From Microbacteriaceae bacterium (GTDB taxonomy: Bacteria > Actinomycetota > Actinomycetes > Actinomycetales > Microbacteriaceae), in assembly GCA_025464895.1 (NCBI GenBank), contig JAODMG010000102.1:1-47886 (forward strand): DNA of 47,886 nucleotides, given 5' to 3'. The position numbers and the translations under genes are program-made. Each line of letters opens with the position of its first letter. The stretch's first letter is position 1. The notes below the pieces were generated by a model, which was not told the origin of the DNA, searched no databases, and saw only the letters and a program-made list of their open reading frames with translations. Of this stretch, positions 12,824 through 33,006 are shown piece after piece.

Positions 12824-12848
12824 CGTGCGCAGATCCATTGTCGCCATG

Positions 12849-12866
12849 CCGTTTGCCTCCGAATGA
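12849..12866. promoter_or_regulatory. 18-bp palindromic operator, copy 1 (CCGTTTGCCTCCGAATGA)
   Basis: Matches the motif repeated in six intergenic positions of the cluster; lies just upstream of candidate -10 TAGCCT (12869-12874). Confidence 0.7.
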
Positions 12867-12918
12867 TCTAGCCTTGGTCGCAGTCCCAGCTCGAACACGA
12901 TTGATCGGATGGTCTCCA

Positions 12919-14433
12919 ATGGCGAAGACAACAGCAGGCAAGACCCTCGGTGACTGGACGAAGCAGGCGAACGAAATCGCCTGGCCGTCGACGCTGGTGG
13001 TGGACGGCAGGCTGGTCGAGTCACAGGACGGCGCGACCTTCGCTCACATCAGCCCTCGCGAGGGAAGCCTGCTCACCAACGTTCCATCCGGAAGTGTCGG
13101 CGACATCGACCTCGCGGTGGCCGCGGCGCGGCGGGCGTTCGACGACGGACCATGGCCGCGCTTCGCCCCCAGGGTCCGCAAGGAATTGATGCTCCGGTTC
13201 GCGGAGCTTATCGAGGCGCACCGCGATGAGCTCGCCATCATGATCAGTCTCGAGATGGGCAAGCCGATCGACGACGCATGGGGCATCGAGCTGCGGGCGG
13301 TGCTCGCGACCTACCGCTGGTACGCGGAGCTCGCGGACAAGGAGCTCGACGAGATCTCGCCGGTCGGATCGGATGACCTCGCACTCATCACCCGCGAGCC
13401 GGTCGGAGTCGTTGGCGTTGTAACCCCGTGGAACTTCCCTCTCACCCTCGCGGCCTGGAAGATCGCGCCGGCAATGGCGGTCGGCTGCACGATCGTGCAG
13501 AAGCCATCGGATCTGAGTTCGCCTTCGGCCATCCGGATGGCCGAGTTGGCGCTCGAAGCGGGGATACCGGCCGGAGTGCTGAACGTCGTCCCCGGGCGGG
13601 GTTCTGTGCTCGGCAGGCACCTTGGGATGCATCCGGGCGTCGATGCTCTCGCGTTCACCGGTTCGACCGAGGTCGGTCGCGCCTACCTCGAATACTCGGC
13701 GAGATCGAACCTCAAACGAACCTGGCTCGAGCTCGGAGGCAAGTCGGGCAACATCATCCTTCCGGATGCTCCCGATCTCGACGTCGCCATAGCGACCGCG
13801 GCCTGGGGCATCTTCTTCAACAGCGGCCAGATGTGCACTGCGCCGTCGCGGCTGATCGTGCACCGCGATATCGCGGACGAGGTGATTGCCGGAGTGGTCG
13901 CACGCGCCGCAGACTACCGTCCGGGGGATCCGCTCGACCCGGAGACGAAGATGGGTCCGCTGGCATCCGGAACACGGCTCTCGGAGGTCGAGGGACACGT
14001 GCGGGAGGCCAGGGAGGACGGCGCGGAGGCTATCGTCGGCGGCAGCGCGTATGACGGCGTCGACGTTCCTGCCAACGGGGTCTACTTCGAGCCGACCATC
14101 TTCACCGGAGTGTCGCCGGACTCCAGGCTTGCCCAGAACGAGGTGTTCGGCCCTGTGCTCGCGATCGTGACGGTGAACGACGACGAGGAGGCCATACGGG
14201 TCGCGAACAACTCCGACTACGGGCTGGCCGCCGGGCTCTGGACCTCGGATGTCTCGAAGGTGCACCGCCTATCGCGCCGGCTCCGCGCCGGCACAGTCTG
14301 GGTCAACTGCTACGAGGAGGGCGACCTCACCGTGCCGTTCGGCGGCTACAAGCTCTCTGGCAACGGCCGGGACAAGTCGCGGCATGCCCTCGAGAAGTAC
14401 ACCGAGCTGAAGACGACGTTCATCCACCTCTGA
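12919..14433 (+). CDS. NAD(P)-dependent aldehyde dehydrogenase, PuuC-like
   Basis: PWNFPL, FTGSTEVG, LELGGKS, FNSGQMC, EVFGPV; C-terminus PFGGYKLSGNGRDKSRHALEKYTELKT closely resembles PuuC-type ALDHs; start moved to ATG 12919. Confidence 0.9.
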   Translation: MAKTTAGKTLGDWTKQANEIAWPSTLVVDGRLVESQDGATFAHISPREGSLLTNVPSGSVGDIDLAVAAARRAFDDGPWPRFAPRVRKELMLRFAELIEAHRDELAIMISLEMGKPIDDAWGIELRAVLATYRWYAELADKELDEISPVGSDDLALITREPVGVVGVVTPWNFPLTLAAWKIAPAMAVGCTIVQKPSDLSSPSAIRMAELALEAGIPAGVLNVVPGRGSVLGRHLGMHPGVDALAFTGSTEVGRAYLEYSARSNLKRTWLELGGKSGNIILPDAPDLDVAIATAAWGIFFNSGQMCTAPSRLIVHRDIADEVIAGVVARAADYRPGDPLDPETKMGPLASGTRLSEVEGHVREAREDGAEAIVGGSAYDGVDVPANGVYFEPTIFTGVSPDSRLAQNEVFGPVLAIVTVNDDEEAIRVANNSDYGLAAGLWTSDVSKVHRLSRRLRAGTVWVNCYEEGDLTVPFGGYKLSGNGRDKSRHALEKYTELKTTFIHL

Positions 14434-14460
14434 GCGTCGGGAGCCGACGGGCTGGAAACC

Positions 14461-15954
14461 TCAGGAGATCACGTCGCGCAACAGCTCCGGATTGACGGTG
14501 CGACGCGTGCTCGACACTGCGAAGCCGACGATGAGCACGGCGAACGGCAGCAGGATGAGAATCCAGCCGATCGGGCTCTGGGCCCACGGCGTGACCGTCG
14601 GGTCGACGCCCTCCGCCGCGGTTCCCGCCAACAGTCCGAACCGCGACATCAGCAGGTATTCTCCGAGCACGAGGCCGACCAGGGCGATGATCGGCGCGAT
14701 CACGGTCTGGAAGGCATTCTCCTCCCCGCGATTGGCGCGGAAGTACGCGATCACGGCGATGCAGACCAACATTTCGATGAGCACGATGGCCACGACCGCC
14801 AGCCCGCTGAACCAGTTGAACAGGTTGAGCACCGGGTCGAGCTGGAACACCGCGAAGATCACGATGACGACACCGGTGATGATCGAGGTCAGGACGGATG
14901 CCGCACCAGGAGCACCGCGACGGTTGACCGTATTGAGCCGCTGCGGCAGCACGCCGCCTCGTCCCATCGCGAACAGGTAGCGGCTGGCCGCGTTCTGGAA
15001 CGCGAGGAGGCCGGCGAACAGGCTCGACAACACCAGGATGCTCATCACCGTCGCCATCCACGGTCCGACGTATTGCGATGCGAGGGAGAACAGCACCGCC
15101 GCCGGGTTCTCGAGCCCATTCGAAATGCTCGCGACCTTGTCGACGGCGCTCGACGCGCCGAGGCCGGTGACCATCGCGAACGCGGTCAGGGAGAACAGCA
15201 CGGTGATGACGACCACCGCGAGGTAGGTCGCCCGAGGGACCGCTCGCTTCGGGTTCTTCGACTCTTCGCCGTAGATGGCGGTCGCTTCGAAGCCGATGAA
15301 TGAGGCGAAAGCGAAGGCGAACGCGATCCCGGCAGACCCGGCGAGGCCACCGACCAGGATCTTGTCCGGCGCGAAGGATGCGGCGAAGTTGATGCCATCC
15401 GGTCCACCGTTGACGAGGATCGCGATCGAGGTGACGACGAGCGAGATGAGTTCGAGCAGCATCAGTCCTCCGAGCACTCTCGCGCCTACATCGACGCTGA
15501 GGAGCGACAGGAGCGTGACCACGGCCCATGCCACCAGGGTCCAGGCCCACCACGGCATCACCCCAAGCTGGGCCGAGATGACGGCGCCGAAGAAACCGTA
15601 GATCGCCAGTTGCACCGCGACGTAGGCGAGGATCGACACGAAGGCAGAGGCGATTCCGGCGTGCCTGCCGAGTCCCCGGCCGACATAGGCGAAGAAGGCT
15701 CCCGCGTTGGTGACCCGTTGGCTCATTGCCGCGTACCCGACGCTGAACAGCAGCAGGGTGATGCCGACGACGAGGTAGGCGCCAGGAGCCGCAGCCCCGT
15801 TACCGAGAAGAATCGCGACCGGGACCGCGCCGGTCATCCCGACCAGGGGGGCCGCGGCGGCGACCACGAAAAAGACGATTCCGATCACCCCGAGACGACC
15901 GCGTCGAAGAGTGGTCCCGGTCTCGCTGTCGCGTGCCTGCTCGGTAATCACCAT
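14461..15954 (-). CDS. APC family amino acid/amine permease
   Basis: About 12 TM helices, FFVVAAAAPL, SFIGFEATAIYGEESKNPKRAVPRATY; ATG at 15954 has GAGGAG 7 nt upstream. Confidence 0.9.
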   Translation of the reverse strand: MVITEQARDSETGTTLRRGRLGVIGIVFFVVAAAAPLVGMTGAVPVAILLGNGAAAPGAYLVVGITLLLFSVGYAAMSQRVTNAGAFFAYVGRGLGRHAGIASAFVSILAYVAVQLAIYGFFGAVISAQLGVMPWWAWTLVAWAVVTLLSLLSVDVGARVLGGLMLLELISLVVTSIAILVNGGPDGINFAASFAPDKILVGGLAGSAGIAFAFAFASFIGFEATAIYGEESKNPKRAVPRATYLAVVVITVLFSLTAFAMVTGLGASSAVDKVASISNGLENPAAVLFSLASQYVGPWMATVMSILVLSSLFAGLLAFQNAASRYLFAMGRGGVLPQRLNTVNRRGAPGAASVLTSIITGVVIVIFAVFQLDPVLNLFNWFSGLAVVAIVLIEMLVCIAVIAYFRANRGEENAFQTVIAPIIALVGLVLGEYLLMSRFGLLAGTAAEGVDPTVTPWAQSPIGWILILLPFAVLIVGFAVSSTRRTVNPELLRDVIS

Positions 15955-15988
15955 GGTCATACTCCTCGTCGAGTTCATGAACCGCAGG

Positions 15989-16006
15989 TCGTCCGTGTCC
16001 GAACGA
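15989..16006. promoter_or_regulatory. 18-bp palindromic operator, copy 2 (TCGTCCGTGTCCGAACGA)
   Basis: Upstream of the permease; overlaps by 1 nt the candidate minus-strand -10 CATAAT (16006-16011). Confidence 0.65.
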
Positions 16007-16078
16007 TTATGTCCACAATGACAAACGCGTGACGCCGCGTCAATAGCCCGGACCCGATCCGTCTCGGCCGCGAATCGC

Positions 16079-16096
16079 TCATTTGGGTGCAAACGA
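16079..16096. promoter_or_regulatory. 18-bp palindromic operator, copy 3 (TCATTTGGGTGCAAACGA)
   Basis: Covers the expected -35 region of the promoter whose -10 is TACACT (16112-16117). Confidence 0.7.
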
Positions 16097-16125
16097 TGCC
16101 GGGTGGTCGGCTACACTCTGGCCCT

Positions 16126-16935
16126 ATGAACGCACTCAATGGGTTCCTGCCGCCACTGACGCCGACCGGAACCAGCTCGCTCGTGCCGAGTCCTCCGTGG
16201 CACTACTCGGGAACCCTGCTCACCGTGGAGTATCGGACGGACCCCGGCAACATCCGCGCCATCCTCCCCGCCGACCTCGACCTGGCACCGGATGATCCGG
16301 GCGCCGTCGCCATCATCTGGGCGGACTGGCAGTCCTGCAGCGATGGGGGACTGGAGCTGCTCGATCCGATCCGTTCGCAGTATCTCGAGGCATTCGTCGT
16401 GGTGCGCTGCTCGTATGCCGGCGTCGTCTATAGTCGCTGCGTCGCCATCTGGGTCACCAAGGACTTCGCGATGGCACGCGGCTGGTTCCAGGGCTACCCG
16501 AAGAAGCTTGGTTCGATCCAGGTCACCCGCATCTTCAACCGGGGGAAGGCCACCCCGAGGCTCGAGGCAGGTGCACAACTCGGGGCGTCGCTCTCGGCCT
16601 ACGACCACCGGCTGGCCTCTGCGGTGGTGACCCTTCGCGCGCCCGCGGAGAGCAATGGCTTCGTCAACGGCCATCGGATGCTGCACAACCGTTTCCTGCC
16701 GTCCATCGGCAAGGGCGACGGGCTCTCCCTCGACCAGCTCGTGTCGATGGGAGGCGTCGACCTCGATCTCGGCCAGGCCTGGGAGGGCGACGCTGAGCTC
16801 TCGCTCGCCGATTCACCGTGGGACGAGTTGCACTCGATTCTTCCGGTCCACGAGATCATCGGCGGCTACTACCGCGAGGTCGGCACCACCTTCGACGGGG
16901 GAGAGCTGATCGTCGATCGCTCGCGCGCGGTCTGA
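16126..16935 (+). CDS. Acetoacetate-decarboxylase-fold protein, MppR-like subfamily
   Basis: N-terminal GFLPPLTPTG..SLVPSPPWHYSG, SQYLEAF, Schiff-base motif RGWFQGYPKKLG. Confidence 0.85.
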   Translation: MNALNGFLPPLTPTGTSSLVPSPPWHYSGTLLTVEYRTDPGNIRAILPADLDLAPDDPGAVAIIWADWQSCSDGGLELLDPIRSQYLEAFVVVRCSYAGVVYSRCVAIWVTKDFAMARGWFQGYPKKLGSIQVTRIFNRGKATPRLEAGAQLGASLSAYDHRLASAVVTLRAPAESNGFVNGHRMLHNRFLPSIGKGDGLSLDQLVSMGGVDLDLGQAWEGDAELSLADSPWDELHSILPVHEIIGGYYREVGTTFDGGELIVDRSRAV

Positions 16936-16979
16936 CCTGGCGCCGGTTGCCGCGCCATCCGGGGCGCTCGTAGCCGGGG

Positions 16980-18326
16980 CTAGTAGTCCTCGAGGTACTC
17001 GTCCAGCTCCCACTGGGTGACCAGCCGGGTCGCAGGGTCCTCGACGGCGTCCTCGTAACGCGACACCTCATCCCGCTTCATCATGGTGAAAACGTCGACG
17101 AGCGGCTCTCCGAGGGACGCACGGAACAGCCGGCTCGAATCGAGGGCGTCCAGTGCGCTCGACAGCGACTCCGGCAGTATCTCGGCCGCCTCGTTCTGGT
17201 AGGCCCAGCCGTCCGCGGTGGCTGGGACCGGGAGTTTCCTGACGATGCCGTCGAGCGCGGCGGCCAGCACGGACGCGATCATCAGGTACGGATTCGCCGC
17301 ACCGTCTCCCACTCGAAGCTCCAGCCGGGTTCCAGCCCCTCGTTCCGGCGGAACGCGCACCATCGTGCTGCGATTGTCGTGACCCCAATTCGCCCGGTAC
17401 GGCGCGAGGGTGTCTGGACCGAGTCGCTTGTATGCGTTCACGGTCGGGTTGGTCAGCGCGACGAGCGCCGGCGCGTTGTCCAGGATGCCCGCGATCATCT
17501 GGTTCGCCAGCCCGGAGAGTTCGCCGTCGCTCACCATCAGGTTCGTGCCAGCCGCGTCGACCACCGAGAAGTGCAGGTGGAACCCGCTCCCTCCCTCGTC
17601 GCTCCACGGCCTGCCGAGGAAGGTGGCCAGCTTCCCGGAGCGGGCGACGATGTCTTTCACCGACGTCTTGAACAGGAAGGTCCTGTCCGCCGCCCGCATC
17701 GCCTCGCCGTGCCAGAGGTTGATCTCGTACTGGGACGGACTGAACTCGTGGTTCCCGGCGAAGACGCCGATATCCATCCGGTCCAGGGTCCGGAGCAGTG
17801 TCAGGAACGTGCCGTCCGGGTCGACCCATGCGCCGGTCGTGTAGACCCGTCCCGTGCGCTGCAATGCGCGCTGCCACCCGCCGTCGCCACGCTCGGCGAT
17901 GTAGAACTCGAGTTCTGGACCAACGATCGGGGTGAGACCGAGCGCAGCGTACTGCTCGATGACCCGACGCAGCGCGGACCTGGGGGAGAGCCGGCTATCC
18001 GAGCCGTCCGGGTCGGCCGCGTCGGCGACCACCATCGCGACGCCCGGCTCCCACGGCATCGGCGTGATCGTGGTCGGGTCGATCGTGGTCACCAGGTCCG
18101 GCAGCCCGCTCGACATGATGTCGTTGCCGTCGAGCACGCCTCCGCGGGACGTCGTCACCCAGACTCCCTGGCAGAACGCCGGCCCGTTGGCCGCCGAGCG
18201 GTCGAGTTGGCTGACCAGCAGGTCCTTCGAACGGGTGATGCCGAGGATGTCCGGGAAGATCAGTCGAAGCACGTCGATGCCCTGGCCTTCGAGTTGAGAT
18301 CGCACTGCGGCGACGTCGATGCTCAT
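16980..18326 (-). CDS. Glutamine-synthetase-family protein, probable gamma-glutamyl-amine ligase
   Basis: GPELEFY, HEFSPSQYEI, GSGFHLHFS, DNRSTMVRVP, RLELRVGD; lacks the canonical YEAP flap (has TLAP); ATG 18326 preceded by AAAGGAG. Confidence 0.88.
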   Translation of the reverse strand: MSIDVAAVRSQLEGQGIDVLRLIFPDILGITRSKDLLVSQLDRSAANGPAFCQGVWVTTSRGGVLDGNDIMSSGLPDLVTTIDPTTITPMPWEPGVAMVVADAADPDGSDSRLSPRSALRRVIEQYAALGLTPIVGPELEFYIAERGDGGWQRALQRTGRVYTTGAWVDPDGTFLTLLRTLDRMDIGVFAGNHEFSPSQYEINLWHGEAMRAADRTFLFKTSVKDIVARSGKLATFLGRPWSDEGGSGFHLHFSVVDAAGTNLMVSDGELSGLANQMIAGILDNAPALVALTNPTVNAYKRLGPDTLAPYRANWGHDNRSTMVRVPPERGAGTRLELRVGDGAANPYLMIASVLAAALDGIVRKLPVPATADGWAYQNEAAEILPESLSSALDALDSSRLFRASLGEPLVDVFTMMKRDEVSRYEDAVEDPATRLVTQWELDEYLEDY

Positions 18327-18349
18327 CTTCCAGCTCCTTTGCCGAGAAA

Positions 18350-18367
18350 TCATTCGGGCCTGAACGA
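18350..18367. promoter_or_regulatory. 18-bp palindromic operator, copy 4 (TCATTCGGGCCTGAACGA)
   Basis: In the divergent gap between the GS-like gene and the GATase gene. Confidence 0.7.
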
Positions 18368-18433
18368 ATAGTGCGATACTAGGCCAAATCACACGGCTGT
18401 GGGCCGACGTGACTGGCCGCGAAAGGCGATGCC

Positions 18434-19138
18434 GTGAAAGCCCTGTTCGTACAGCACGATCACATCAGCCCGACGGGGCCGGTCGCCGAGCGACTCGCGC
18501 AGCGCGGATTCGACGTCGAATCTGTTGTCGTGGTCGACGCCGAGAACTTCCACAGTCCGAACGTCGACTTCAGCTTTCCGGATGCGGGCGACTACGACCT
18601 CCTGGTTCCGATGGGTGCGCCGTGGGGTGCCTGGGACGACGCCAGCATCGGCCGGTGGCTGCAGCCGGAGATCGCCTGGATCCGTGATGCGATCGACCGG
18701 GACATCCCGGTGCTCGGGATCTGCTTCGGCGGACAACTCATCGCCCGTGCGCTCGGCGGAGTTGTCGGACCGGCCAGGAAGGCCGAGATCGGCTGGACCG
18801 CGATTCACAGCGATGACCCGTCGCTGGTGTCATCCGGCCCATGGTTCCAGTTCCACTACGACAGTTGGACCCTCCCGGCCGGAGCAACCGAGATCGCCAG
18901 GAACTCGGTGGCATCACAGGCCTTCCGCTACGGCAGAACGCTGGCCGTCCAGTTTCATCCAGAGCTCACCGCCGGCACCCTCGAGGGCTGGTTGCGCGAG
19001 GGCGGGGCAGAGCAGGTGAGCGACGACGGCCAGGACGCGGATGCGCTGCTCGCGCACACCATGGCGGAGGAGCGCGACGCGGCGGCGAGAACGGTCGCCC
19101 TCATCGATGCCTACCTCGATCGAGTCGCGAAACTATAG
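18434..19138 (+). CDS. Class I glutamine amidotransferase-like protein (possible gamma-glutamyl-amide hydrolase)
   Basis: PVLGICFGGQL nucleophile Cys and VQFHPE His-Glu of the triad; stand-alone domain next to the GS-like gene. Confidence 0.88.
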   Translation: MKALFVQHDHISPTGPVAERLAQRGFDVESVVVVDAENFHSPNVDFSFPDAGDYDLLVPMGAPWGAWDDASIGRWLQPEIAWIRDAIDRDIPVLGICFGGQLIARALGGVVGPARKAEIGWTAIHSDDPSLVSSGPWFQFHYDSWTLPAGATEIARNSVASQAFRYGRTLAVQFHPELTAGTLEGWLREGGAEQVSDDGQDADALLAHTMAEERDAAARTVALIDAYLDRVAKL

Positions 19139-19163
19139 CGGTCTGGATGCTCGAGCTGAACAG

Positions 19164-20417
19164 CTAGCGCGCCAGTTCGACCCGCACCGGGAACCGTTTG
19201 ATCCCGTTGATGAAATTGCTGCGCAGACGGTCCAGCGTGCCGGTCTGATGCATTCCACTGATCCGCGGCAGCAGGTCCTCGAACATGATCCGGATCTCCA
19301 GCCGGGCGAGCGCGTTCCCCATGCACATGTGCGGGCCGCCTCGGCCGAACGCCATGTGCTCGTTGGGATTGCGGGTCACATCCATCCGATACGGGTCCTC
19401 GAATACCCCCGGATCGCGATTGCCTGCCGCGAACCAGGTGACCACCTTGTCGCCTTCCTTGATCGCCTGGCCGCCGATCTCCGTGTCCATCGTCGCGGTC
19501 CTGCGAAAGTGATAGACCGGGCTGGCCAGTCGCAAGAACTCCTCGATCGCCCACGGGATCAGCTCAGGACGCTCCTGCAGCAGGGCGAGCTGGTCCGGGT
19601 TCTGCATGAGGTAGTGCATCGAGTGGGTGATGCTGTGTCTCGTCGTCTCGTTCCCCGCGACCACGAGCAGGAGGAAATAACTGTTGAAGTCCCGGTCGGA
19701 GAGCGGGACGTCGTCCATCGGCGTCTGGTTGACCAGGCGCGACACGAGGTCTGTCCCATCTTTTCCGCGGCGCTGCTTGGCGAGCTCGCGCCCGTAGGCG
19801 AAGACCTCCTGCGCCGCAGGGGAGCGGAACGGCAACAGTCGGTACTGCTCGCTCTCATCCGAGTGGAGGAGAACGTCCGCGTGCTCCGGGTCGGTGTTTC
19901 CGACCATCCGATTTCCCCAATCGATCAGGCGATGGATGTCGGTGTCCGGCACGTCCATCATCCGCGCGAGCACCCTGATCGGAAAGTCGGCCGCGACATC
20001 GGCGACGAAATCGAACTCGCCCTTCGCGAAAGCAGCGTCGAGTGTGGTCGCGGTGAGCCCGCGGAGGAATGTCTCATAGCCGACGACCGCCTTCGGGTTG
20101 AACTCGCCCTGCATCAGGCGACGAAGGGCCCGGTGCCGCACCCCATCCGTCTCGAGCATCGACTTCCTGGCTTCGATCTGGTCGGCGTCGAGCTCTTCGA
20201 GGTTCACCGTCCCGCGTTCGCTGGAGAACGTCTCGGTGTCGCGAAGCACCCCGACGATGTCGTGATAGCGGGTGAGCGACCAGAAACCGTGGTTCGGCGC
20301 GTCCTCGTCGTCCCAGTGCACCGGGGCGTTCGCTCGCAGCTCGTCGAACACTTCCCACGGCTGTTCCCGCTCGAATAGATCGAGGTCGGCAAGTGTGACA
20401 TTCGCCAGTGAAGTCAA
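19164..20417 (-). CDS. Cytochrome P450 (CYP124/125-like features)
   Basis: I-helix LLVVAGNETTRH, EEFLR ExxR motif, heme motif FGRGGPHMCMG; TTG start with GGAGG 5 nt upstream. Confidence 0.93.
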   Translation of the reverse strand: MTSLANVTLADLDLFEREQPWEVFDELRANAPVHWDDEDAPNHGFWSLTRYHDIVGVLRDTETFSSERGTVNLEELDADQIEARKSMLETDGVRHRALRRLMQGEFNPKAVVGYETFLRGLTATTLDAAFAKGEFDFVADVAADFPIRVLARMMDVPDTDIHRLIDWGNRMVGNTDPEHADVLLHSDESEQYRLLPFRSPAAQEVFAYGRELAKQRRGKDGTDLVSRLVNQTPMDDVPLSDRDFNSYFLLLVVAGNETTRHSITHSMHYLMQNPDQLALLQERPELIPWAIEEFLRLASPVYHFRRTATMDTEIGGQAIKEGDKVVTWFAAGNRDPGVFEDPYRMDVTRNPNEHMAFGRGGPHMCMGNALARLEIRIMFEDLLPRISGMHQTGTLDRLRSNFINGIKRFPVRVELAR

Positions 20418-20434
20418 CGCATCCTCCGGGGATA

Positions 20435-20452
20435 TTGTTAGGATGCGAACAA
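20435..20452. promoter_or_regulatory. 18-bp palindromic operator, copy 5 (TTGTTAGGATGCGAACAA)
   Basis: Between P450 and MarR genes; overlaps candidate minus-strand -10 TAGGTT (20451-20456). Confidence 0.7.
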
Positions 20453-20554
20453 CCTACACCTCAGGCAGGGGACGCAACAGCTCCGAAGCACACTCGTGAC
20501 CCCGTTGGGGTGAACTAGAGTTGCGACACCCGCGGATTGCCAAGGAGATACGAC

Positions 20555-21055
20555 ATGCCCGGACCTCACACCCTGGTCGAGACGGAACGACGGGTCGATG
20601 AGCGGCTCGGCCAACTCGACATCGACTTCACGTCAATGGCAGTGGTATCCAACCTGTTCCGTGCCGCGAACGCCGTCCGCAACCACCTCGAACGCACCGT
20701 CCTGGCGGAACACGACCTCTCCTGGACGGGGTTTGTCGTGCTCTGGGTCACCTGGATCTGGGAGCCGATCGAGACCAGGCAGATCGCCGTGGAGGGCGGG
20801 TTCTCGAAGGCAACGCTCACCGGGGTGCTGTCGACTCTCGAAGGCAGGGGTTGGCTGGCACGGGAGAAGAGCCAGAGCGACGGCCGACTGGTCCTCGTGC
20901 GGATGACACCGGCAGGCAGGGACCTGATGGAGACACTGTTCCCTGCGTTCAACGAACAGGAACGGCACGTCGCAAGCCCCGTCGATCCGGCCAAGCGCGG
21001 CGAATTGGCCGAAATGCTCCGCGTGGTGACCGTGAACGTTGAGAAACAGTCCTAG
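20555..21055 (+). CDS. MarR family transcriptional regulator
   Basis: Winged-helix pattern SKATLTGVLSTLEGRGWLAR...DGRLVLVRMTPAG; ATG 20555 preceded by AAGGAG. Confidence 0.92.
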   Translation: MPGPHTLVETERRVDERLGQLDIDFTSMAVVSNLFRAANAVRNHLERTVLAEHDLSWTGFVVLWVTWIWEPIETRQIAVEGGFSKATLTGVLSTLEGRGWLAREKSQSDGRLVLVRMTPAGRDLMETLFPAFNEQERHVASPVDPAKRGELAEMLRVVTVNVEKQS

Positions 21056-21092
21056 CGCTGTTGTAGAGCCAATGCCGATTGGATAGGCTAAC

Positions 21093-21110
21093 TCATTAGC
21101 ATCCGAATGA
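21093..21110. promoter_or_regulatory. 18-bp palindromic operator, copy 6 (TCATTAGCATCCGAATGA)
   Basis: Just downstream of candidate -10 TAGGCT (21084-21089), upstream of the ring-cleavage operon. Confidence 0.75.
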
Positions 21111-21142
21111 TTTAACGACGAGTCATTCGAGACGGGAACTGC

Positions 21143-22606
21143 ATGTCCACGATCGAGGTTGCCGGAGTCCAGGTCGACCTCCGGCATTACATCGGAGGCC
21201 GGCGAATCGAGTCGGAGTCCACGTTTCGGAACAGTTCGCCGATCGACGGCAGTTTCCTCGGCGACATCGCCAGAGGCGGCCAGCGCGAGGTTGATCTCGC
21301 CGTCGCGGCGGCGACCGACGCCTTCCCCGTGTGGTCGACCACGCCGCCTGCCGACCGTGCCGCCGTCCTGAACCGGATAGCAGACCTGGTCGACCAGAAC
21401 CTGTCGGACCTCGCCATTGTCGAGACCACGGACAACGGGGCGCTGCTCCGCAGCCATCTCCGCGGCGTGATGCCGAGGGTCGCGCACAATTTTCGCTTCT
21501 TCGCCGACTGGCTGGTCAACCACCTGGGGCATCCGGATTTCGAGACCCGCGGCCACACGAATCACGTCAGCTGGGACCCGTCTGGGGTGGCCGCCCTCAT
21601 CACGCCGTGGAATGCGCCGCTGATGCTCGCCACCTGGAAGATCGCGCCGGCCCTGGCCGCCGGGGACACCGTCGTTCTGAAACCGGCAGAGTGGACTCCG
21701 CTGACCGCGTCGCTGTTCGCCGATCTCACCAAGCAGGCCGGGCTGCCGGATGGAGCGTTCAACGTTGTGCAGGGCTACGGGAGCGAGGCGGGGGCGGCCC
21801 TGGTGGCCCACCCGGGGCTCAGGCGAATCTCCTTCACCGGCTCGGTCCCCACCGCGAAGACGATCGCGATGGCCGCGGCAGAAAACCTCACGCCCTGCAG
21901 TTTCGAGCTCGGCGGCAAGAGCCCGTTCATCGTGCTCGCGGATGCCGACCTCGAGTTGGCGGCCGACCTCGCAGTCGAGCAGTACGACAACGCCGGCCAG
22001 GTGTGCCTCTCCGGCACCCGCATCCTCGTCCACGACAGCATTGCCGATCGTTTTTCGGCGGTCTTCCGTGCGAGGGCCGAGGCACTGCGGCAGGGTGATC
22101 CGAGGGACCCCGAGACGGACATCGGCCCGCAGATCCACCCAGCCCACTTCGACCGGGTCAAGGGCTTCGTCGACCGTGCATCCGCCGAGGGGGCGGACAT
22201 CGTCTTCGGCGGAACTCCGAACGAGGAGCTCGGCGGACTCTACTTCCGGCCAACACTGGTGAACGAGCCGTCGCGAGACAGCGAGATCGTCACAGAGGAG
22301 GTCTTCGGCCCGGTGCTCACCATGCAGAGATTCTCGACCGACGACGAGGCAATCGCCGTGGCGAACGGCACAGAGTTCGGGCTCGCCGCCGTTGTCGTCT
22401 CCGGCAACAGGACACACGCCGACGCGATCACATCGCGCCTGGTCGCCGGCACCATCTGGGTGAACTGCTTCTTCGTCCGCGACCTGCGGGCGCCATTCGG
22501 CGGCTCGAAGAAATCCGGGGTCGGGCGAGAAGGCGGCACCTGGTCGTTCGACTTCTATGCGGACGTGAAGAACACGGTCGTTGCTCCACAGGGATGGAAG
22601 GAATAG
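21143..22606 (+). CDS. Aldehyde dehydrogenase, (carboxymethyl)hydroxymuconic-semialdehyde dehydrogenase type (HpaE/XylG-like)
   Basis: ITPWNAPLMLATWKIAPALAAG, KPAEWTPLTA, FELGGKS, GQVCLSG, VRDLRAPFGGSKKSGVGREGG. Confidence 0.88.
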   Translation: MSTIEVAGVQVDLRHYIGGRRIESESTFRNSSPIDGSFLGDIARGGQREVDLAVAAATDAFPVWSTTPPADRAAVLNRIADLVDQNLSDLAIVETTDNGALLRSHLRGVMPRVAHNFRFFADWLVNHLGHPDFETRGHTNHVSWDPSGVAALITPWNAPLMLATWKIAPALAAGDTVVLKPAEWTPLTASLFADLTKQAGLPDGAFNVVQGYGSEAGAALVAHPGLRRISFTGSVPTAKTIAMAAAENLTPCSFELGGKSPFIVLADADLELAADLAVEQYDNAGQVCLSGTRILVHDSIADRFSAVFRARAEALRQGDPRDPETDIGPQIHPAHFDRVKGFVDRASAEGADIVFGGTPNEELGGLYFRPTLVNEPSRDSEIVTEEVFGPVLTMQRFSTDDEAIAVANGTEFGLAAVVVSGNRTHADAITSRLVAGTIWVNCFFVRDLRAPFGGSKKSGVGREGGTWSFDFYADVKNTVVAPQGWKE

Positions 22607-22609
22607 GAA

Positions 22610-23518
22610 ATGGGAGAAGTAGTAGGCGTCGGCCTGATCGCTCATGTACCGACGATCATGCTGCCCCGTGACGAGCGGCTGGCCATCAACGACGGCAAAG
22701 AGATCACCCTGGTACCCGGTCTCGAGAAGCTTCGCAAAGACGTGTTCGAGTCGGATGACTATGACACCGTCGTCGTACTCGACAGCCACTGGGCAACCAC
22801 CGTCGAGTACGTGATCTCCTCGCACGAGCACCGCGGCGGAAAGTTCACATCGGAGGAACTGCCGAGAGGGATGCACGGGGTGCCGTTCGGCTACCGCGGA
22901 GATCCGCAACTCGCCGAACTCGCCGGCCGATTCGCCGAGAAGAACGGAACCTGGATCACGCCGATCGACGACCCGGACCTGCCGGTAATGTACGCGACGA
23001 TCAACCTCTGGAAGTTTCTCGGCGAGGGCCTCGACAAGCGCTGGGTGAGTCTCAGCGTCTGCCAGACCGGAACAGACGAAGACATGCTCCGTGCGGGCAG
23101 GGCGCTCGGTGAGGCCATCGCGGCGAGCGATCGCCGCGTCATCCTGCTGGCATCCGGTGCGCTGTCGCACACCTTCTACAAGCTGCGCGAGCTCCGCAAA
23201 CACGAGGCGAGCGACCCGAAGCACATCTTCTCCGACAAGGCCAGGGCAGCGGACTACGAGCGACTCGAATGGATGAAGGCCGGCGAGCACGGCAAGATCC
23301 TCGAGTCGATGCCCGCATTCCACACGGTGCGGCCGGAGGCCATGTTCGGCCACTGGCTGCTGGCGGCCGGCGCCATCGGCGAAGAAGACTGCACCGCTCC
23401 AGGCGAGCTGTACAGCGAATACGAGAACTCGATCGGAACCGGACAGGTCCACGTCTGGTTTCCTCGTCCGGCCGACGGCTTCCCGCTGGCCAAGGATGTG
23501 ACGCTGTCCCGTGACTGA
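22610..23518 (+). CDS. LigB-fold extradiol dioxygenase, homoprotocatechuate 2,3-dioxygenase (HpaD)-like
   Basis: AHVPTI, VVLDSHW, SEELP, YATI, ASGALSHTF and GTGQ motifs parallel those of HpaD. Confidence 0.85.
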   Translation: MGEVVGVGLIAHVPTIMLPRDERLAINDGKEITLVPGLEKLRKDVFESDDYDTVVVLDSHWATTVEYVISSHEHRGGKFTSEELPRGMHGVPFGYRGDPQLAELAGRFAEKNGTWITPIDDPDLPVMYATINLWKFLGEGLDKRWVSLSVCQTGTDEDMLRAGRALGEAIAASDRRVILLASGALSHTFYKLRELRKHEASDPKHIFSDKARAADYERLEWMKAGEHGKILESMPAFHTVRPEAMFGHWLLAAGAIGEEDCTAPGELYSEYENSIGTGQVHVWFPRPADGFPLAKDVTLSRD

Positions 23519-24401
23519 GTTCCGGCGCATTCTGCTCGACGGCGTTGCCACCCAGGTGGTAAGGCACGGCGGCACACTGACCGCGTCCGACGGGAGGGAG
23601 GTCTCGGCCGAAAGTGCGGTGCACCTTCCCCCGACCGAGCCGAGCAAGATCATCGCCGTGCACCTGAACTACGCCAGCCGCACCGAAGAATTCATGACGA
23701 AACTGCCGGATGCGCCGACCTACTTCCAGAAGCCGGTGACCGCGCTCAACAGCCACGGTGGGGCCGTGGTCCGTCCGCTCGGGTGCAAATGGCTGAACTT
23801 CGAAGGCGAGATCGTCATCGTCATCGGTCGAACCTGCCGCAACGTGTCCCCGGCGGAGGCCGGCGACTACATTGCGGGCTACACGATCGGGAACGACTTC
23901 GGCCTCCACGATTTCCGGGACACCGATGCCGGTTCGATGCTGCGGGTCAAGGGCAGTGACACCCTGGCGCCGGTCGGCCCGGGCCTCGTCACCGACTGGG
24001 ACTTCCGCGACAAGCAGATCCGCACCATGGTGAACGGGGTCGTGAAGCAGGACGACAGCACGGCGAACATGAAGTGGGACATGCATTACCTGGTCGCGGA
24101 CATCGCCCGCACGATCACCCTCAGCCCCGGCGACCTGCTGTTCACCGGCACCCCGGCGTTCTCGCGTCCGGTGGAGCCCCGGGACGTCATCGAGGTCGAG
24201 GTCGAGGGCCTCGGCACCCTGCGCAACCACGTGGTGTCCGGTCCGATCCCGATACGAACGGATGTCGGTGCCCAACCCAGCGAGAGCGAAGAGGTCGTCT
24301 CGACGGCGCTCGGCGGCGACTGGGAGTTTCGCGGCATCCGCACCCCGTCGAAAGACCTGTACCCCTCGACGGTCGAGGAGACGACAGTGGAGGACAGCTA
24401 G
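23511..24401 (+). CDS. Fumarylacetoacetate hydrolase family protein (HpaG-like decarboxylase/isomerase)
   Basis: KIIAVHLNY, FQKP, FEGEI, GYTIGND, RVKGSDT, PGDLLFTGTP. Confidence 0.9.
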   Translation: MTEFRRILLDGVATQVVRHGGTLTASDGREVSAESAVHLPPTEPSKIIAVHLNYASRTEEFMTKLPDAPTYFQKPVTALNSHGGAVVRPLGCKWLNFEGEIVIVIGRTCRNVSPAEAGDYIAGYTIGNDFGLHDFRDTDAGSMLRVKGSDTLAPVGPGLVTDWDFRDKQIRTMVNGVVKQDDSTANMKWDMHYLVADIARTITLSPGDLLFTGTPAFSRPVEPRDVIEVEVEGLGTLRNHVVSGPIPIRTDVGAQPSESEEVVSTALGGDWEFRGIRTPSKDLYPSTVEETTVEDS

Positions 24402-24593
24402 TTGATCAAGGTTGAAGTGGATATGAGTCTCTGCCAGAACTATGGGCAGTGCGTGTTCGAAGCGCCCAGGATTTTCCATCTGAACGACGACGACAAGCTC
24501 GAGCACCTGGCGGAAGCCAATGACGATGAGCGCGACCAGGTCGAGTCTGCGGTGGATGTCTGCCCGATGCAGGCCATTCGAATCGTCGACTGA
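24402..24593 (+). CDS. Ferredoxin, 3Fe-4S type (P450-associated)
   Basis: CQNYGQC...CPMQAI motif; 63 aa; abuts both neighbouring genes with zero spacing. Confidence 0.9.
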   Translation: MIKVEVDMSLCQNYGQCVFEAPRIFHLNDDDKLEHLAEANDDERDQVESAVDVCPMQAIRIVD

Positions 24594-25808
24594 ATGAGCA
24601 CCCCGGCCGAGGCTCCGGTCGTCATCGTCGGTGGCGCGATGGGAGGACTGCGGGCGGCCGAGGCCCTCAGGCGAGCCGGATATACCGGCGGAGTGAAGGT
24701 CGTCGGACAGGAACTGCACGCCCCGTACAATCGGCCGCCGCTGTCCAAGGATGTCCTGTCGACCGTCGTCACCCACGAGGCCGTCGCCTTCCCAGAGCGT
24801 GCGGCAACGGCCGATGTCGACTGGGTGCGCGGGGTGTCAGCCACCGACGCCGATCTCGAGGCGAGAACCGTGACGACCGACGACGGCGAAGTGCATCCCT
24901 GGAAGGCACTGGTCATCGCGACCGGTCTTCGGGCCCGCCGCCTGGCGCTTCCCGAGCTGCCGGGCCGCCAGGCCATCCGCACTCTCGACGATGCAATCGC
25001 CCTCCGGGCACAGTTGACCGATGTCGCCAGGATTGTCGTGCTCGGCTCCGGATTCCTCGGCTGTGAAGTCGCCGCCACCGCACGAAAGCTGGGCTGTGAT
25101 GTGACCATCGTGTCGCCGAGCGACCTACCGATAGTCCGCCCGCTCGGTCGACTCGTCGCCGGCGAGATTCAACGCCGCCACGAGGCAAAGGGGGTGCGAT
25201 TCCGGTTGGGAAGAACGGTGGAGCACCTCGACGGCGAGGATCGACTCACCGCGGTGGCGCTGGACGACGGTGAACGGATCGAGGCGGATGTGCTGGTCGA
25301 GGCCATCGGATCGGACTGCAACAGCGAATGGTTGGCAGGCACCCCGCTGGACCTGACCGACGGGATCCGCGCCGACGCGGCCATGCGCGCGGTCTCGACC
25401 GATGGCATGGCCCACGACGACGTGTATGTCGTGGGAGACATCGCCAGGTTCCCGAACCTCATGTTCGACGACGTGCCGAGGCGGGTCGAGCACTGGAACA
25501 TCCCGACCGACACCGGAAAGCGTGCCGGTGCGGTTCTCGCCTCCTGGCTCGCGAACGACGGCTCGTTCGCCGACGCCGTTGCGCAGCCGTTCACGCCGAT
25601 GCCATCGTTCTGGTCCAACCAGTTCGAGCTAGCGCTGCAGGCGTACGGACTCCCGAGTCTCGCGGACGAGGACGGCATCAGGCTGCTCGATGGCGAGCTG
25701 TCGGGGGATGCGATCGTCGGCTACTACCGCGGCGACCGGCTGGTCGGGGTGGTCGGCCTCGGCATGAAGGCGGCCCTGCTGCCGTATCGCGCGACTATCG
25801 CCGGCTAG
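24594..25808 (+). CDS. FAD-dependent ferredoxin reductase
   Basis: PYNRPPLSK, LVIATG, GSGFLGCEVA, VGDIA, RRVEHW, PSFWSNQ. Confidence 0.92.
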   Translation: MSTPAEAPVVIVGGAMGGLRAAEALRRAGYTGGVKVVGQELHAPYNRPPLSKDVLSTVVTHEAVAFPERAATADVDWVRGVSATDADLEARTVTTDDGEVHPWKALVIATGLRARRLALPELPGRQAIRTLDDAIALRAQLTDVARIVVLGSGFLGCEVAATARKLGCDVTIVSPSDLPIVRPLGRLVAGEIQRRHEAKGVRFRLGRTVEHLDGEDRLTAVALDDGERIEADVLVEAIGSDCNSEWLAGTPLDLTDGIRADAAMRAVSTDGMAHDDVYVVGDIARFPNLMFDDVPRRVEHWNIPTDTGKRAGAVLASWLANDGSFADAVAQPFTPMPSFWSNQFELALQAYGLPSLADEDGIRLLDGELSGDAIVGYYRGDRLVGVVGLGMKAALLPYRATIAG

Positions 25809-33005: not shown

Positions 33006-33006
33006 G

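What the first reader, a model, noticed from the sequence alone, without database searches (positions are those of the whole stretch)
12919..25808. Candidate new pathway: amine gamma-glutamylation plus P450 oxidation feeding homoprotocatechuate-type ring cleavage
Seen: 12 contiguous genes encoding an APC permease, GS-like ligase, stand-alone class I GATase, PuuC-like ALDH, P450, 3Fe-4S ferredoxin, reductase, MppR-like ADC-fold enzyme, HpaE-like ALDH, HpaD-like dioxygenase, FAH protein and MarR. Known: GS-like + GATase + P450/ferredoxin + permease + ALDH is the logic of the Pseudomonas isopropylamine (ipu) pathway. GS-like + GATase precede a Rieske dioxygenase in aniline (atd/tdn) catabolism. 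HpaD/E/G degrade 3,4-dihydroxyphenylacetate. Inference: an aromatic amine (tyramine, dopamine or similar) is imported, N-glutamylated, oxidised by the P450, converted to an aryl acid and ring-cleaved. No amine oxidase, transaminase or HpaBC monooxygenase is encoded here. I do not know of a characterised pathway with this combination; the substrate is a hypothesis.
Basis: partly seen in the sequence, partly recalled or inferred. Interest (0 to 1): 0.85.

Follow-up and report, generated by a model that had tools for sequence, protein, structure and literature searches.

The report
Glutamate-tagged tyramine/dopamine ring-cleavage pathway
This bacterium carries a 12-gene cluster, conserved in many Actinomycetota, that likely attaches glutamate to a tyramine- or dopamine-like amine and would then break the aromatic ring open with the tag still on, a predicted route that I did not find described in the papers I could search.

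Summary
All 12 genes are real and intact. Eleven keep their order and strands in 25-26 of 26 full-length related loci. The set recurs, reshuffled, across Actinomycetota and on a Novosphingobium plasmid. One HpaR-type palindrome marks four of its promoter regions.

Six near-complete genomes keep the ligase and ring-cleavage genes with no match to the P450 anywhere, so the P450 is unlikely to be the deaminating link. In 29 of 40 loci from that genus, the PuuC-like dehydrogenase abuts a PuuD-like hydrolase.

Best reading (0.6): tyramine is gamma-glutamylated, ring-hydroxylated to gamma-glutamyl-dopamine and meta-cleaved while tagged. That gives pyruvate plus gamma-glutamyl-4-aminobutanal, then GABA. 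No activity was measured and the substrate is inferred.

Against: the PuuC-like gene is dispensable, and the window's GATase may be a glutaminase. One related dioxygenase cluster has no ligase.

Not found in ten literature searches. The scan noted this cluster before on other DNA (four earlier findings, three with a similar reading).

The parts
12848..12867 (.). Weak operator-like site (one near-perfect half-site) upstream of ALDH1
   Evidence: Matrix score 8.0, below the 12-bit level. The best sites upstream of ALDH1 in four related loci score 4.4-17.0.
12919..14433 (+). ALDH1, PuuC/KauB-clade aldehyde dehydrogenase; predicted gamma-glutamyl-4-aminobutanal dehydrogenase; accessory gene
   Evidence: Best NCBIfam hit PuuC, 534 bits. 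Best PDB hit 4LIH, gamma-glutamyl-gamma-aminobutyraldehyde dehydrogenase. 45% to E. coli PuuC, 39% to FeaB, 37% to PatD. Orthologue in 4 of 60 named loci.
14461..15978 (-). APC-family permease, predicted amine importer (start codon uncertain)
   Evidence: PF00324/PF13520; best NCBIfam hit ethanolamine permease, 79 bits against cut-off 382.
15988..16007 (.). Operator-like palindrome in the APC|ADC divergent promoter region
   Evidence: Matrix score 16.2, rank 5 in the genome.
16078..16097 (.). Operator-like palindrome in the APC|ADC divergent promoter region
   Evidence: Matrix score 21.6, rank 3 in the genome.
16126..16935 (+). MppR-like enzyme of the acetoacetate decarboxylase fold; predicted hydratase-aldolase replacing HpaH+HpaI
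   Evidence: PF06314. PDB 4ZBO/6EEJ and MppR 4JM3 at E about 1e-46, with the GYPKK motif aligned. HpaH and HpaI absent from 134 of 134 loci.
16980..18326 (-). Glutamine-synthetase-like ligase; predicted gamma-glutamyl-amine synthetase
   Evidence: PF00120. Ten metal, ATP and glutamate residues are kept in 84 of 84 orthologues. Ammonium-site D50, Y179 and E327 are replaced in 84 of 84.
18349..18368 (.). Operator-like palindrome in the GS|GATase divergent promoter region
   Evidence: Matrix score 20.6, rank 4 in the genome.
18434..19138 (+). Stand-alone class I glutamine amidotransferase; a gamma-glutamyl hydrolase or glutaminase, exact role open
   Evidence: PF00117; GxCxG and HPE motifs; best PDB hit 7D54, E 1e-61.
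19164..20417 (-). Cytochrome P450 related to CYP125/124/268; predicted ring ortho-hydroxylase of the glutamylated phenol
   Evidence: PF00067; best PDB hits CYP125MRCA and CYP125/268/124. AGNET, ExxR and heme Cys present. Lost together with Fdx and FdR from six loci that keep GS and ring cleavage.
20434..20453 (.). Operator-like palindrome in the P450|MarR divergent promoter region
   Evidence: Matrix score 25.2, best site in the genome.
20537..21055 (+). MarR-family regulator, HpaR-like; predicted repressor of the cluster (start codon uncertain)
   Evidence: PF01047; best NCBIfam hit HpaR, 48 bits against cut-off 121; 20% identical to E. coli HpaR.
21092..21111 (.). Operator-like palindrome upstream of the ring-cleavage operon
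   Evidence: Matrix score 24.7, rank 2 in the genome.
21143..22606 (+). ALDH2, HpaE-like 2-hydroxymuconic-semialdehyde dehydrogenase
   Evidence: HpaE 517 bits against cut-off 638; groups next to HpaE in the tree.
22610..23518 (+). LigB-fold extradiol dioxygenase, sister group to HpaD; predicted to cleave gamma-glutamyl-dopamine
   Evidence: PF02900. Model pLDDT 96.6, best fold match 8IQ8 (DHPAO), TM 0.85, 26% identity. H12/H60/E243/H187/Y128 kept.
23511..24401 (+). FAH-family protein; predicted HpaG-type decarboxylase/isomerase
   Evidence: PF01557; 36% to the C-terminal half of E. coli HpaG.
24402..24593 (+). Ferredoxin with a three-cysteine (3Fe-4S-type) motif; predicted P450 partner
   Evidence: PF13459/PF13370; motif.
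24594..25808 (+). NAD(P)H:ferredoxin reductase; predicted P450 partner
   Evidence: PF07992 and PF14759.

Best explanation
The cluster likely catabolises a tyramine/dopamine-type arylethylamine by gamma-glutamylating it and would open the aromatic ring while the nitrogen is still acylated. Predicted steps, none measured: (1) the APC permease imports the amine, or in relatives a PLP decarboxylase makes it from Tyr/DOPA; (2) the GS-like ligase forms the gamma-glutamyl amide; (3) P450 with Fdx and FdR adds the second ring hydroxyl, giving gamma-glutamyl-dopamine, a step not needed if the amine is already a catechol; (4) the LigB-fold dioxygenase cleaves 2,3; (5) ALDH2 oxidises the semialdehyde; (6) the FAH protein decarboxylates; (7) the MppR-like enzyme hydrates and retro-aldol-cleaves to pyruvate plus gamma-glutamyl-4-aminobutanal; (8) PuuC-like ALDH1, or another ALDH, gives gamma-glutamyl-GABA; (9) a C26/PuuD-like hydrolase or the GATase frees glutamate and GABA, which goes on through GabT/GabD. 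The tag would stop the ring-opened amine, and later the amino-aldehyde, from cyclising. MarR likely represses all units through one palindrome. Shown here: gene identities, catalytic residues, conserved linkage, gene-loss patterns and the palindrome. Inferred: the substrate, every reaction and their order.
For: (a) Linkage: eleven genes in 25-26 of 26 full-length named loci, with the same order and strands; the same set reshuffled across the phylum and on a Novosphingobium plasmid. (b) Displacement: in 14 of 14 loci from 13 genomes with a GS match but no LigB match, GS, P450 and FAH sit with a VOC-fold extradiol dioxygenase instead. (c) P450 is optional, GS mostly is not. Of 40 loci from genus g8, six keep GS and ring cleavage without P450, Fdx or FdR, and their 99-100% complete genomes have no match to the P450 at E<=1e-80, while two other genomes in the same searches did match. 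L222 reads GS | MarR, ALDH2, LigB, FAH, decarboxylase, ADC, ALDH1, C26, with no oxidase among them. The S. lunaelactis plasmid is also P450-less. (d) The decarboxylase is in 6 of those 40 loci, none with the P450, and in 0 of the 27 loci with it. (e) ALDH1 abuts a C26 hydrolase on the same strand in 29 of 29 such loci; C26 is 32% to PuuD, and PuuC+PuuD turn gamma-glutamyl-aminobutanal into GABA (PMC10606097, passages). (f) A class III transaminase is in 8 of 35 LigB-centred loci, beside the dioxygenase where mapped, and a cut-off-passing GABA transaminase lies beside the GATase in L132. (g) The ligase lacks the ammonium residues, as GlnA4 and PauA7 do (PMC6529630, passages). (h) Ring-opened DOPA with a free amine cyclises spontaneously (PMC11926856, passages). 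(i) The five best operator sites among 2,825,171 genome positions all lie in the cluster.
Against: No enzyme was assayed. ALDH1 is in only 4 of 60 named loci, and five related genomes had no hit above 44%. The window's cluster has no C26 gene; the genome's only clear C26 hit (34%) lies in another GS-like cluster on C69. The GATase's best PDB hit, 7D54, is recalled as an enzyme active on glutamine but not gamma-glutamyl-GABA; the paper was not held. ALDH1's second PDB hit, 5IUU, is recalled as an indole-3-acetaldehyde dehydrogenase. G133 has a basal member of the dioxygenase group with a PuuC-like ALDH, HpaB/HpaC and an acyl-CoA-ligase-like gene, but no GS or P450 orthologue, and the group's invariant residues are present there too. 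GS was inside the fetched stretch in only 17 of 35 LigB-centred loci. Of five GS-less ones followed up, three had a 39-41% hit on another contig, one had a 37% hit about 33 kb away and one had none. L229 has ring cleavage, ALDH1 and C26 but no GS in the stretch. The solved relatives of the P450 are labelled steroid or alkyl-chain oxidases, not ring hydroxylases. The decarboxylases are about 30% identical to solved enzymes and do not separate aromatic from diaminobutyrate types by score; the P450-less type has a different pocket motif. Three of the six P450-less loci share one layout, so they are not independent.
Confidence: 0.6

Rival explanations
1. One reading: the P450 hydroxylates the carbon next to the amide nitrogen. 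The carbinolamide collapses to an arylacetaldehyde plus glutamine, the GATase acts as glutaminase, ALDH1 makes homoprotocatechuate, and the lower genes degrade the free acid to pyruvate and succinic semialdehyde.
For: The GATase's nearest solved relative is recalled as a glutaminase (7D54). ALDH1's clade is recalled to include an arylacetaldehyde dehydrogenase (5IUU). The P450's solved relatives oxidise alkyl chains. The dioxygenase's best fold match is DHPAO. A basal relative sits with HpaBC and no ligase. P450 oxidation beside a gamma-glutamylated nitrogen in the Pip pathway is recalled (named in earlier finding e1-4702696; not read).
Against: Six genomes and one plasmid keep the ligase and ring cleavage with no match to the P450, and their loci share no substitute oxidase. 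The cluster would have no ring hydroxylase for tyramine. GATase is in only 3 of 40 g8 loci while C26 is in 29. HpaX and HpaF are absent from 134 of 134 loci. The dioxygenase is outside the annotated HpaD clade.
Confidence: 0.12
2. Ipu-type order: glutamylate, hydroxylate, then remove the tag with the GATase before cleavage. Free dopamine is cleaved and 4-aminobutanal (delta-1-pyrroline) is oxidised to GABA.
For: In Ipu an amidotransferase is postulated to remove glutamate right after the P450 step (PMC6776027, passages). GATase is in 26 of 26 full-length named loci. L132 has a cut-off-passing aminobutyraldehyde dehydrogenase and GABA transaminase beside the GATase. The dioxygenase has an invariant acidic residue, E272.
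Against: If the tag served only the P450, the ligase should be lost with it, yet six P450-less loci keep it. Ring-opened catechol amines with free nitrogen cyclise. The ALDH1-C26 pair points to glutamylated late intermediates.
Confidence: 0.1
3. Same logic, different main substrate: octopamine/noradrenaline, m-tyramine, 3-methoxytyramine, phenylethylamine, a hydroxybenzylamine such as vanillylamine, or an aminophenol.
For: VanA-like Rieske proteins are in 10 and GCV_T (DmdA/LigM-like) proteins in 7 of 134 loci. A second P450 of the same family is in 5 loci. An SDR family recurs in 18 of 55 loci. Ligase specificity cannot be read from sequence; mutagenesis of NpaA1 did not settle it either (bioRxiv 2024.01.21.576549, passages).
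Against: A group II amino-acid decarboxylase of several lineages recurs in the cluster, and the genome's own orthologue aligns at the pocket with DOPA/Trp decarboxylases. Both point to a two-carbon amine from an aromatic amino acid. The C4 tail enzymes fit an ethylamine side chain.
Confidence: 0.15
4. Two unrelated modules (aliphatic amine glutamylation and aromatic acid cleavage) that are merely neighbours.
For: The genes lie in several transcription units. G133 and four g8 loci show the dioxygenase group without the ligase.
Against: The genes interleave in many different orders. Linkage survives replacement of the dioxygenase by another fold and reaches another phylum. One palindrome marks both halves.
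Confidence: 0.03

Closest known systems
E. coli Puu pathway (PuuA, PuuB, PuuC, PuuD, PuuE)
   Same: GS-like ligase (30% to PuuA), PuuC-like ALDH (45%), C26 hydrolase in relatives (32% to PuuD); the predicted late intermediates are the same.
   Different: No PuuB oxidase in 134 of 134 loci. The aldehyde would come from retro-aldol cleavage of a ring-opened aromatic, not from amine oxidation.
Homoprotocatechuate meta-cleavage pathway (HpaDEFGHI; E. coli, A. baumannii TH, PMC12718150)
   Same: LigB-fold dioxygenase, HpaE-like ALDH, HpaG-like FAH protein, HpaR-like repressor; the operator matrix scores an E. coli hpaR-hpaG palindrome at 22.8 bits.
   Different: The dioxygenase is a separate clade at 25-30% identity. 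No HpaF, HpaH, HpaI, HpaX or HpaBC. An MppR-like enzyme sits in place of hydratase and aldolase. The predicted substrate carries a glutamylated amine, not a carboxylate.
Ipu isopropylamine pathway (Pseudomonas KIE171, Arthrobacter aurescens TC1; PMC6776027)
   Same: Permease, GS-like ligase, P450 with ferredoxin and reductase, GATase, ALDH.
   Different: Aliphatic substrate, no ring cleavage, and the tag is removed right after the P450 step. I could not align to Ipu proteins.
Aniline/naphthylamine dioxygenase systems (AtdA1-A5, Tdn, NpaA1-A5; bioRxiv 2024.01.21.576549)
   Same: The aromatic amine is gamma-glutamylated first, and a GAT-like enzyme hydrolyses excess amide.
   Different: The nitrogen is on the ring, and the Rieske dioxygenase turns the amide into a catechol before cleavage. 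Here a P450 replaces the Rieske enzyme and the nitrogen is predicted to stay on through cleavage.
PauA7/PA5508 of P. aeruginosa and GlnA4 of S. coelicolor (PMC6529630)
   Same: GS-like ligases lacking D50/Y179/E327; PauA7 glutamylates aromatic monoamines.
   Different: Only distantly related (4HPP, E 4e-29). The passages read give no downstream ring-cleavage pathway.
Tyramine/dopamine catabolon of Pseudomonas putida U (cited by title in PMC10606097; mechanism recalled)
   Same: Same predicted substrates and a meta-cleavage lower pathway.
   Different: Recalled to deaminate first to the aryl acid and to use HpaBC, with no glutamylation.

Membership tests
GS-like gamma-glutamyl-amine ligases | Metal, ATP and glutamate residues of glutamine synthetase kept | tested here: met
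   E129, E131, E212, E220, H269, R321, R339, R344, E357, R359 in 84 of 84 orthologues against E. coli GlnA.
GS-like gamma-glutamyl-amine ligases | Ammonium-site D50, Y179 and E327 replaced | tested here: met
   D50 to C 82/84 (S 2), Y179 to V 83/84 (A 1), E327 to L 80/84 (M 4); criterion from PMC6529630.
GS-like gamma-glutamyl-amine ligases | ATP-dependent glutamylation of an organic amine | not testable with these tools
   Needs an assay.
Puu pathway | PuuA equivalog | tested here: not met
   NF045547 252 bits, cut-off 650; 30% to PuuA.
Puu pathway | PuuB-type FAD oxidase in the cluster | tested here: not met
   0 of 134 loci.
Puu pathway | PuuC-type dehydrogenase and PuuD-type hydrolase | tested here: inconclusive
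   ALDH1 groups with PuuC but scores 534/850. C26 is absent from the window's cluster, present in 24 of 60 named loci and 29 of 40 g8 loci.
Homoprotocatechuate pathway | HpaD orthologue | tested here: not met
   TIGR02298 119 bits, cut-off 316; separate from 11 annotated HpaD, SH-aLRT 100, quick tree only.
Homoprotocatechuate pathway | HpaF, HpaH, HpaI and HpaX in the cluster | tested here: not met
   0 of 134 loci for each.
Homoprotocatechuate pathway | HpaE- and HpaG-type enzymes | tested here: inconclusive
   Best hits but below cut-off: 517/638 and 193/276.
LigB-class (type II) extradiol dioxygenases | LigB fold with a His-His-Glu iron site and a catalytic His | tested here: met
   TM 0.85 to 8IQ8. 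H12, H60 and E243 in 91/92 each, H187 in 92/92. The roles of these residues are recalled.
Ipu pathway | Gene set of permease, ligase, P450 system, GATase and ALDH | tested here: met
   reference set from PMC6776027.
Ipu pathway | Orthology to IpuC/IpuD and activity on isopropylamine | not tested
   No Ipu sequences were fetched.
Aniline dioxygenase systems (Atd/Tdn/Npa) | Rieske dioxygenase beside the ligase and GAT | tested here: not met
   No Rieske protein among the 12 genes. VanA-like Rieske genes occur only as accessories in 10 of 134 loci.
MppR-like acetoacetate decarboxylase superfamily | ADC-family sequence with the Schiff-base lysine motif | tested here: met
   PF06314; GYPKK aligned to 4ZBO and 4JM3. 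The lysine's role is recalled. TIGR04460 186/380, so it is not MppR itself.
MppR-like acetoacetate decarboxylase superfamily | Hydratase-aldolase activity on a 2-oxo-enoate | not testable with these tools
   Aldolase activity of MppR, and induction of relatives in a meta-cleavage pathway, are reported in PMC7820114 (passages). The hydratase-aldolase activity of the 4ZBO enzyme is recalled.
HpaR-type MarR regulons | Palindromic operator at the regulated promoters | tested here: met
   Binding itself is untested, and HpaR equivalog status is not met (48/121).

The most novel reading that the evidence does not exclude
A widespread actinobacterial pathway carries out extradiol ring fission and the whole lower meta-cleavage sequence on an N-gamma-glutamyl catecholamine. 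It uses glutamate as a protecting group and hands the side chain to Puu-type enzymes as gamma-glutamyl-4-aminobutanal. It would need a dioxygenase clade for glutamyl-dopamine, a CYP125-related ring hydroxylase and an MppR-like catabolic hydratase-aldolase. It would be a main bacterial sink for tyramine and dopamine in soil and fresh water, kept even by streamlined Rhodoluna and Planktophila.
Probability: 0.55. Interest if true: 0.75.

Novelty: new variant of a known kind. Interest (0 to 1): 0.6.

Why it matters
If true, it adds a further way to degrade biogenic aromatic amines, one in which nitrogen is not removed first.

It would give a function to a cluster whose dioxygenase was matched in 36 of 401 sampled phylum genomes and 76 of 331 genomes of genus g8. 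The cluster is also present in Rhodoluna and Planktophila assemblies of 1.1-1.3 Mb. Its members are now annotated 'catechol 1,2-dioxygenase', 'glutamine synthetase family' or 'acetoacetate decarboxylase'.

It would show glutamylation acting as a protecting group through ring fission. It would also supply a soluble P450 that makes a dopamine derivative from a tyramine derivative. Named strains carry it (Salinibacterium amurskyense DSM 16400, Streptomyces canus, S. lunaelactis MM109, Novosphingobium EMRT-2), so it can be tested directly.

Tried and rejected
Structure and residues:
- The dioxygenase folded without an alignment gave pLDDT 32 and was discarded; the aligned model was used.
- The idea that loss of the Arg after the catalytic His marks loss of carboxylate binding was rejected: the Arg is present in 3 of the 7 dioxygenase-group rows shown and absent from 2 of 11 HpaD.
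- Group-invariant residues (R86, E272, H281) cannot be tied to a glutamylated substrate, because the ligase-less G133 enzyme has them.
- The careful dioxygenase tree did not finish; only the quick tree is cited.

Searches that added nothing:
- The P450 homologue search gave only generic names.
- The 50%-cluster search for the dioxygenase gave 576 hits without names or context.
- One RNA run laid 11 short contigs on the region; this is not evidence of transcription.
- An operator-like site at C119:33490 (13.1 bits) lies among unrelated genes and was set aside.
- The operator matrix finds nothing on the Novosphingobium locus (best 0.3 bits).

Literature: ten searches found no description of the pathway. 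Papers on Swit_4259, Sbi00515, MppR and SpuA/MsGATase were not held, and most subscription papers are outside the library, so a published account cannot be excluded. No supplements were read. No complex prediction was run.

Full report
Observation. All name-giving NCBIfam models score below their cut-offs, so the genes resemble PuuA/PuuC, HpaD/E/G/R and MppR without being shown to be them. The strands alternate, giving three divergent promoter regions (APC|ADC, GS|GATase, P450|MarR), a lone ALDH1 and a five-gene run. The cluster lies between pyruvate kinase and an alpha/beta hydrolase gene, with the same GC3 as its neighbours. Half or more of the sampled words occur in 11 of 20 listed runs, all labelled soil metagenome; one of them may be the source of this DNA. 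The closest named loci are Microbacteriaceae.

Conservation near the window. The P450 scan of GTDB gave 60 loci. In the 26 full-length ones, nine genes were found in 26 of 26 at 45% identity or more, and LigB and the reductase in 25 of 26; the exception, L059, is frameshift-ridden. Order and strands are unchanged. An ALDH1 orthologue is in 4 of 60. Two accessory genes fill fixed slots: a C26 peptidase in 24 of 60 and a group II PLP decarboxylase in 22 of 60, together only in L009. The window has neither in the cluster, but the genome has a 76% decarboxylase orthologue on C64 among unrelated genes. The dioxygenase was matched in 5 of 5 other genomes of the genus and 0 of 19 other genomes of the family in that sample.

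Wider distribution. The dioxygenase matched 36 of 401 phylum genomes, the P450 26 of 401 class genomes and the ligase 25 of 401 phylum genomes, each at a strict threshold. I fetched 35 LigB-centred and 20 of the 25 other P450-centred places. The same genes recur in many orders. In the 20 P450-centred loci GS was seen in 18, ADC in 19 and LigB in 16. In the 35 LigB-centred stretches, several cut by contig ends, GS was seen in 17 and P450 in 22. Thirteen genomes had a GS match but no LigB match. All 14 of their loci carry GS, P450, FAH and a VOC-fold protein whose best model is the other HpaD type (97 bits, cut-off 321); 13 also have ADC, 13 ALDH2 and 9 a decarboxylase. A Novosphingobium plasmid has GS, P450, LigB, ADC, FAH, two ALDHs and MarR. 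HpaF, HpaH, HpaI, HpaX and PuuB had no hit in any of 134 loci.

The test that orders the steps. Genus g8 has genomes of 7-12 Mb, and its usual cluster matches the named Streptomyces canus plasmid, so it is probably Streptomyces (inference). The dioxygenase matched 76 of 331 genomes. I fetched 40 of the 79 places, chosen for contig length and to include divergent ones. Twenty-seven have the P450 in the stretch, and one more has it just outside. Six keep GS, ALDH2, LigB, FAH and ADC but lack P450, ferredoxin and reductase together. Their genomes, 99-100% complete, have no match to the P450 at E<=1e-80, while G865 and G1004 matched in the second of the two searches. A decarboxylase is in 6 of the 40 loci, none with the P450. 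L222 is a compact version: GS divergent from MarR, ALDH2, LigB, FAH, decarboxylase, ADC, ALDH1 and C26. Flavoproteins or a transaminase lie near some P450-less loci, but none is shared by all. The S. lunaelactis plasmid is the same kind, and its paper lists the ligase, ADC, hydrolase and ALDH genes as of unknown role (PMC9866976, table passage). Three of the six share one layout, so the number of independent losses is smaller. ALDH1 abuts C26 on the same strand in 29 of 29 loci that have it.

Enzymes. The ligase keeps ten GS catalytic residues in 84 of 84 orthologues and replaces D50, Y179 and E327 in all, the pattern described for GlnA4 and PauA7 (PMC6529630, passages). The dioxygenase model (pLDDT 96.6) matches A. 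baumannii DHPAO best (TM 0.85) and keeps the iron and catalytic residues. It forms its own group apart from 11 annotated HpaD in a quick tree. ALDH1 is nearest PuuC: 45%, against 39% to FeaB and 37% to PatD, with 4LIH as best solved relative and a 99-supported group with PuuC in a FastTree that held no arylacetaldehyde dehydrogenase. The ADC-fold protein aligns to 4ZBO and MppR. MppR is reported as an aldolase, and relatives are induced in archaeal phenol meta-cleavage (PMC7820114, passages); the hydratase-aldolase activity of the 4ZBO enzyme is recalled. The P450 is a distinct family near CYP125/124/268, with intact motifs. GabT-like genes were found in 5 of 5 genomes checked, including this one, and GabD- and PatD-like genes in this one.

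Regulation. A matrix trained on 197 upstream regions of the named loci, seeded from a consensus read off the window, converged on ATCATTCGGATCCGAATGAT. Its five best sites among 2,825,171 genome positions lie in the cluster's four main promoter regions, and a weak site (8.0 bits) precedes ALDH1. It scores an E. coli hpaR-hpaG palindrome at 22.8 bits and finds sites before ALDH1-C26, ADC and GS in S. lunaelactis. One regulon is predicted, not measured.

Mechanism. In the homoprotocatechuate pathway, the ring substituent ends up in succinic semialdehyde beside pyruvate (PMC12718150, abstract and introduction). Put CH2CH2NH-gamma-Glu in place of CH2COOH and the aldehyde becomes gamma-glutamyl-4-aminobutanal, the substrate of PuuC and then PuuD (PMC10606097, passages). 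That explains the ALDH1-C26 pair, the transaminases in other lineages, the missing HpaX and PuuB, and why the ligase outlasts the P450. Ring-opened DOPA with a free amine cyclises by itself (PMC11926856, passages), which gives the tag a purpose. The P450 then fits best as the optional monophenol-to-catechol step. All of this is inference.

Evidence against. ALDH1 is dispensable: five related genomes had no hit above 44%. The A. baumannii HpaE-type enzyme also oxidises succinic semialdehyde, so ALDH2 may cover, but that helps either model. The window's GATase may be a glutaminase (7D54, recalled), or a safety valve as in aniline systems (bioRxiv 2024.01.21.576549, passages). G133 uses a basal dioxygenase with HpaBC and a CoA-ligase-like gene and has no GS or P450 orthologue. 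Four g8 loci have the dioxygenase without the rest of the cluster, and L217, the one annotated, sits with PvcA/TauD/HpaB genes. The dioxygenase group is therefore not confined to glutamylated substrates. L229 lacks GS in the stretch. The genome has unlinked amine-oxidase-like genes. Decarboxylase specificity is not established. VanA-like and GCV_T-type accessories suggest that methoxylated or methylated amines feed in.

Novelty. Both halves are known kinds; their fusion, and cleavage of a still-glutamylated ring, were not found in ten searches of the open library. Most subscription papers are not searched. I wrote this reading down before consulting earlier scan notes. Four notes on other genomes describe the same cluster; they are not independent support. 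Verdict: a real, conserved, uncharacterised pathway; new variant of gamma-glutamylation catabolism; mechanism 0.6; interest 0.6.

Noticed in passing
L217:3104-11532 (G896); dioxygenase also in L215, L216, L218: A member of the same dioxygenase group (52%) sits with PvcA-like isonitrile synthase, TauD/PvcB-like, HpaB, asparagine-synthase-like and flavin reductase genes. This is a candidate biosynthetic cluster that would hydroxylate and ring-cleave a tyrosine isonitrile.
   Followed up: partly
L122:2049-11464 (G133): A variant with PuuC-like ALDH, ALDH2, ADC, FAH, an acyl-CoA-ligase-like gene, HpaB, LigB, MarR and a flavin reductase, and no GS or P450 orthologue. It may tag with CoA instead of glutamate.
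   Followed up: partly
L150:16985-25543 (Novosphingobium EMRT-2 plasmid): CocE/NonD hydrolase, TonB receptor, carboxylesterase and tannase/feruloyl esterase genes follow the cluster. They could release tyramine from plant hydroxycinnamoyl amides; this is speculation.
   Followed up: no
L127, L128, L131, L133, L135: Two P450s of the same family (the second 50-53% to the window's) in one cluster, plus a third unrelated P450 in three of them. These may be successive hydroxylations from phenylethylamine.
   Followed up: partly
L134, L137-L145; L095, L100, L101, L107, L109, L120, L125: VanA-like Rieske oxygenases (10 loci) and GCV_T/DmdA-like proteins (7 loci) beside the cluster; possible O- or N-demethylation feeders.
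   Followed up: no
G000:C69 (L181), G000:C190 (L182), G000:C238: The genome has further GS-like genes: APC-GS-C26-ALDH on C69 (Puu-like), APC-isochorismatase-SDR-GS-amidohydrolase-SDR on C190, and two on C238.
   Followed up: partly
G000:C24:9407-11281: A copper amine oxidase-like gene (28% to E. coli TynA over 655 aa) about 2 kb from an ALDH; a possible separate route for aromatic amines.
   Followed up: no
window 31015-38673: thiC on one strand, and thiD/tenA, a FAD oxidoreductase, thiG and a ThiF-rhodanese gene on the other: an ordinary thiamine cluster.
   Followed up: no
window 27-12772: Tryptophan genes, lgt, gltB/gltD and pyruvate kinase precede the cluster. The same pyk neighbour is seen in L001, L005, L007, L008 and L059.
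   Followed up: no
window 46323-47564: The long ORF has only a partial thymidylate synthase hit (residues 278-404) and overlaps the preceding gene, so the real gene may be broken or in another frame.
   Followed up: no
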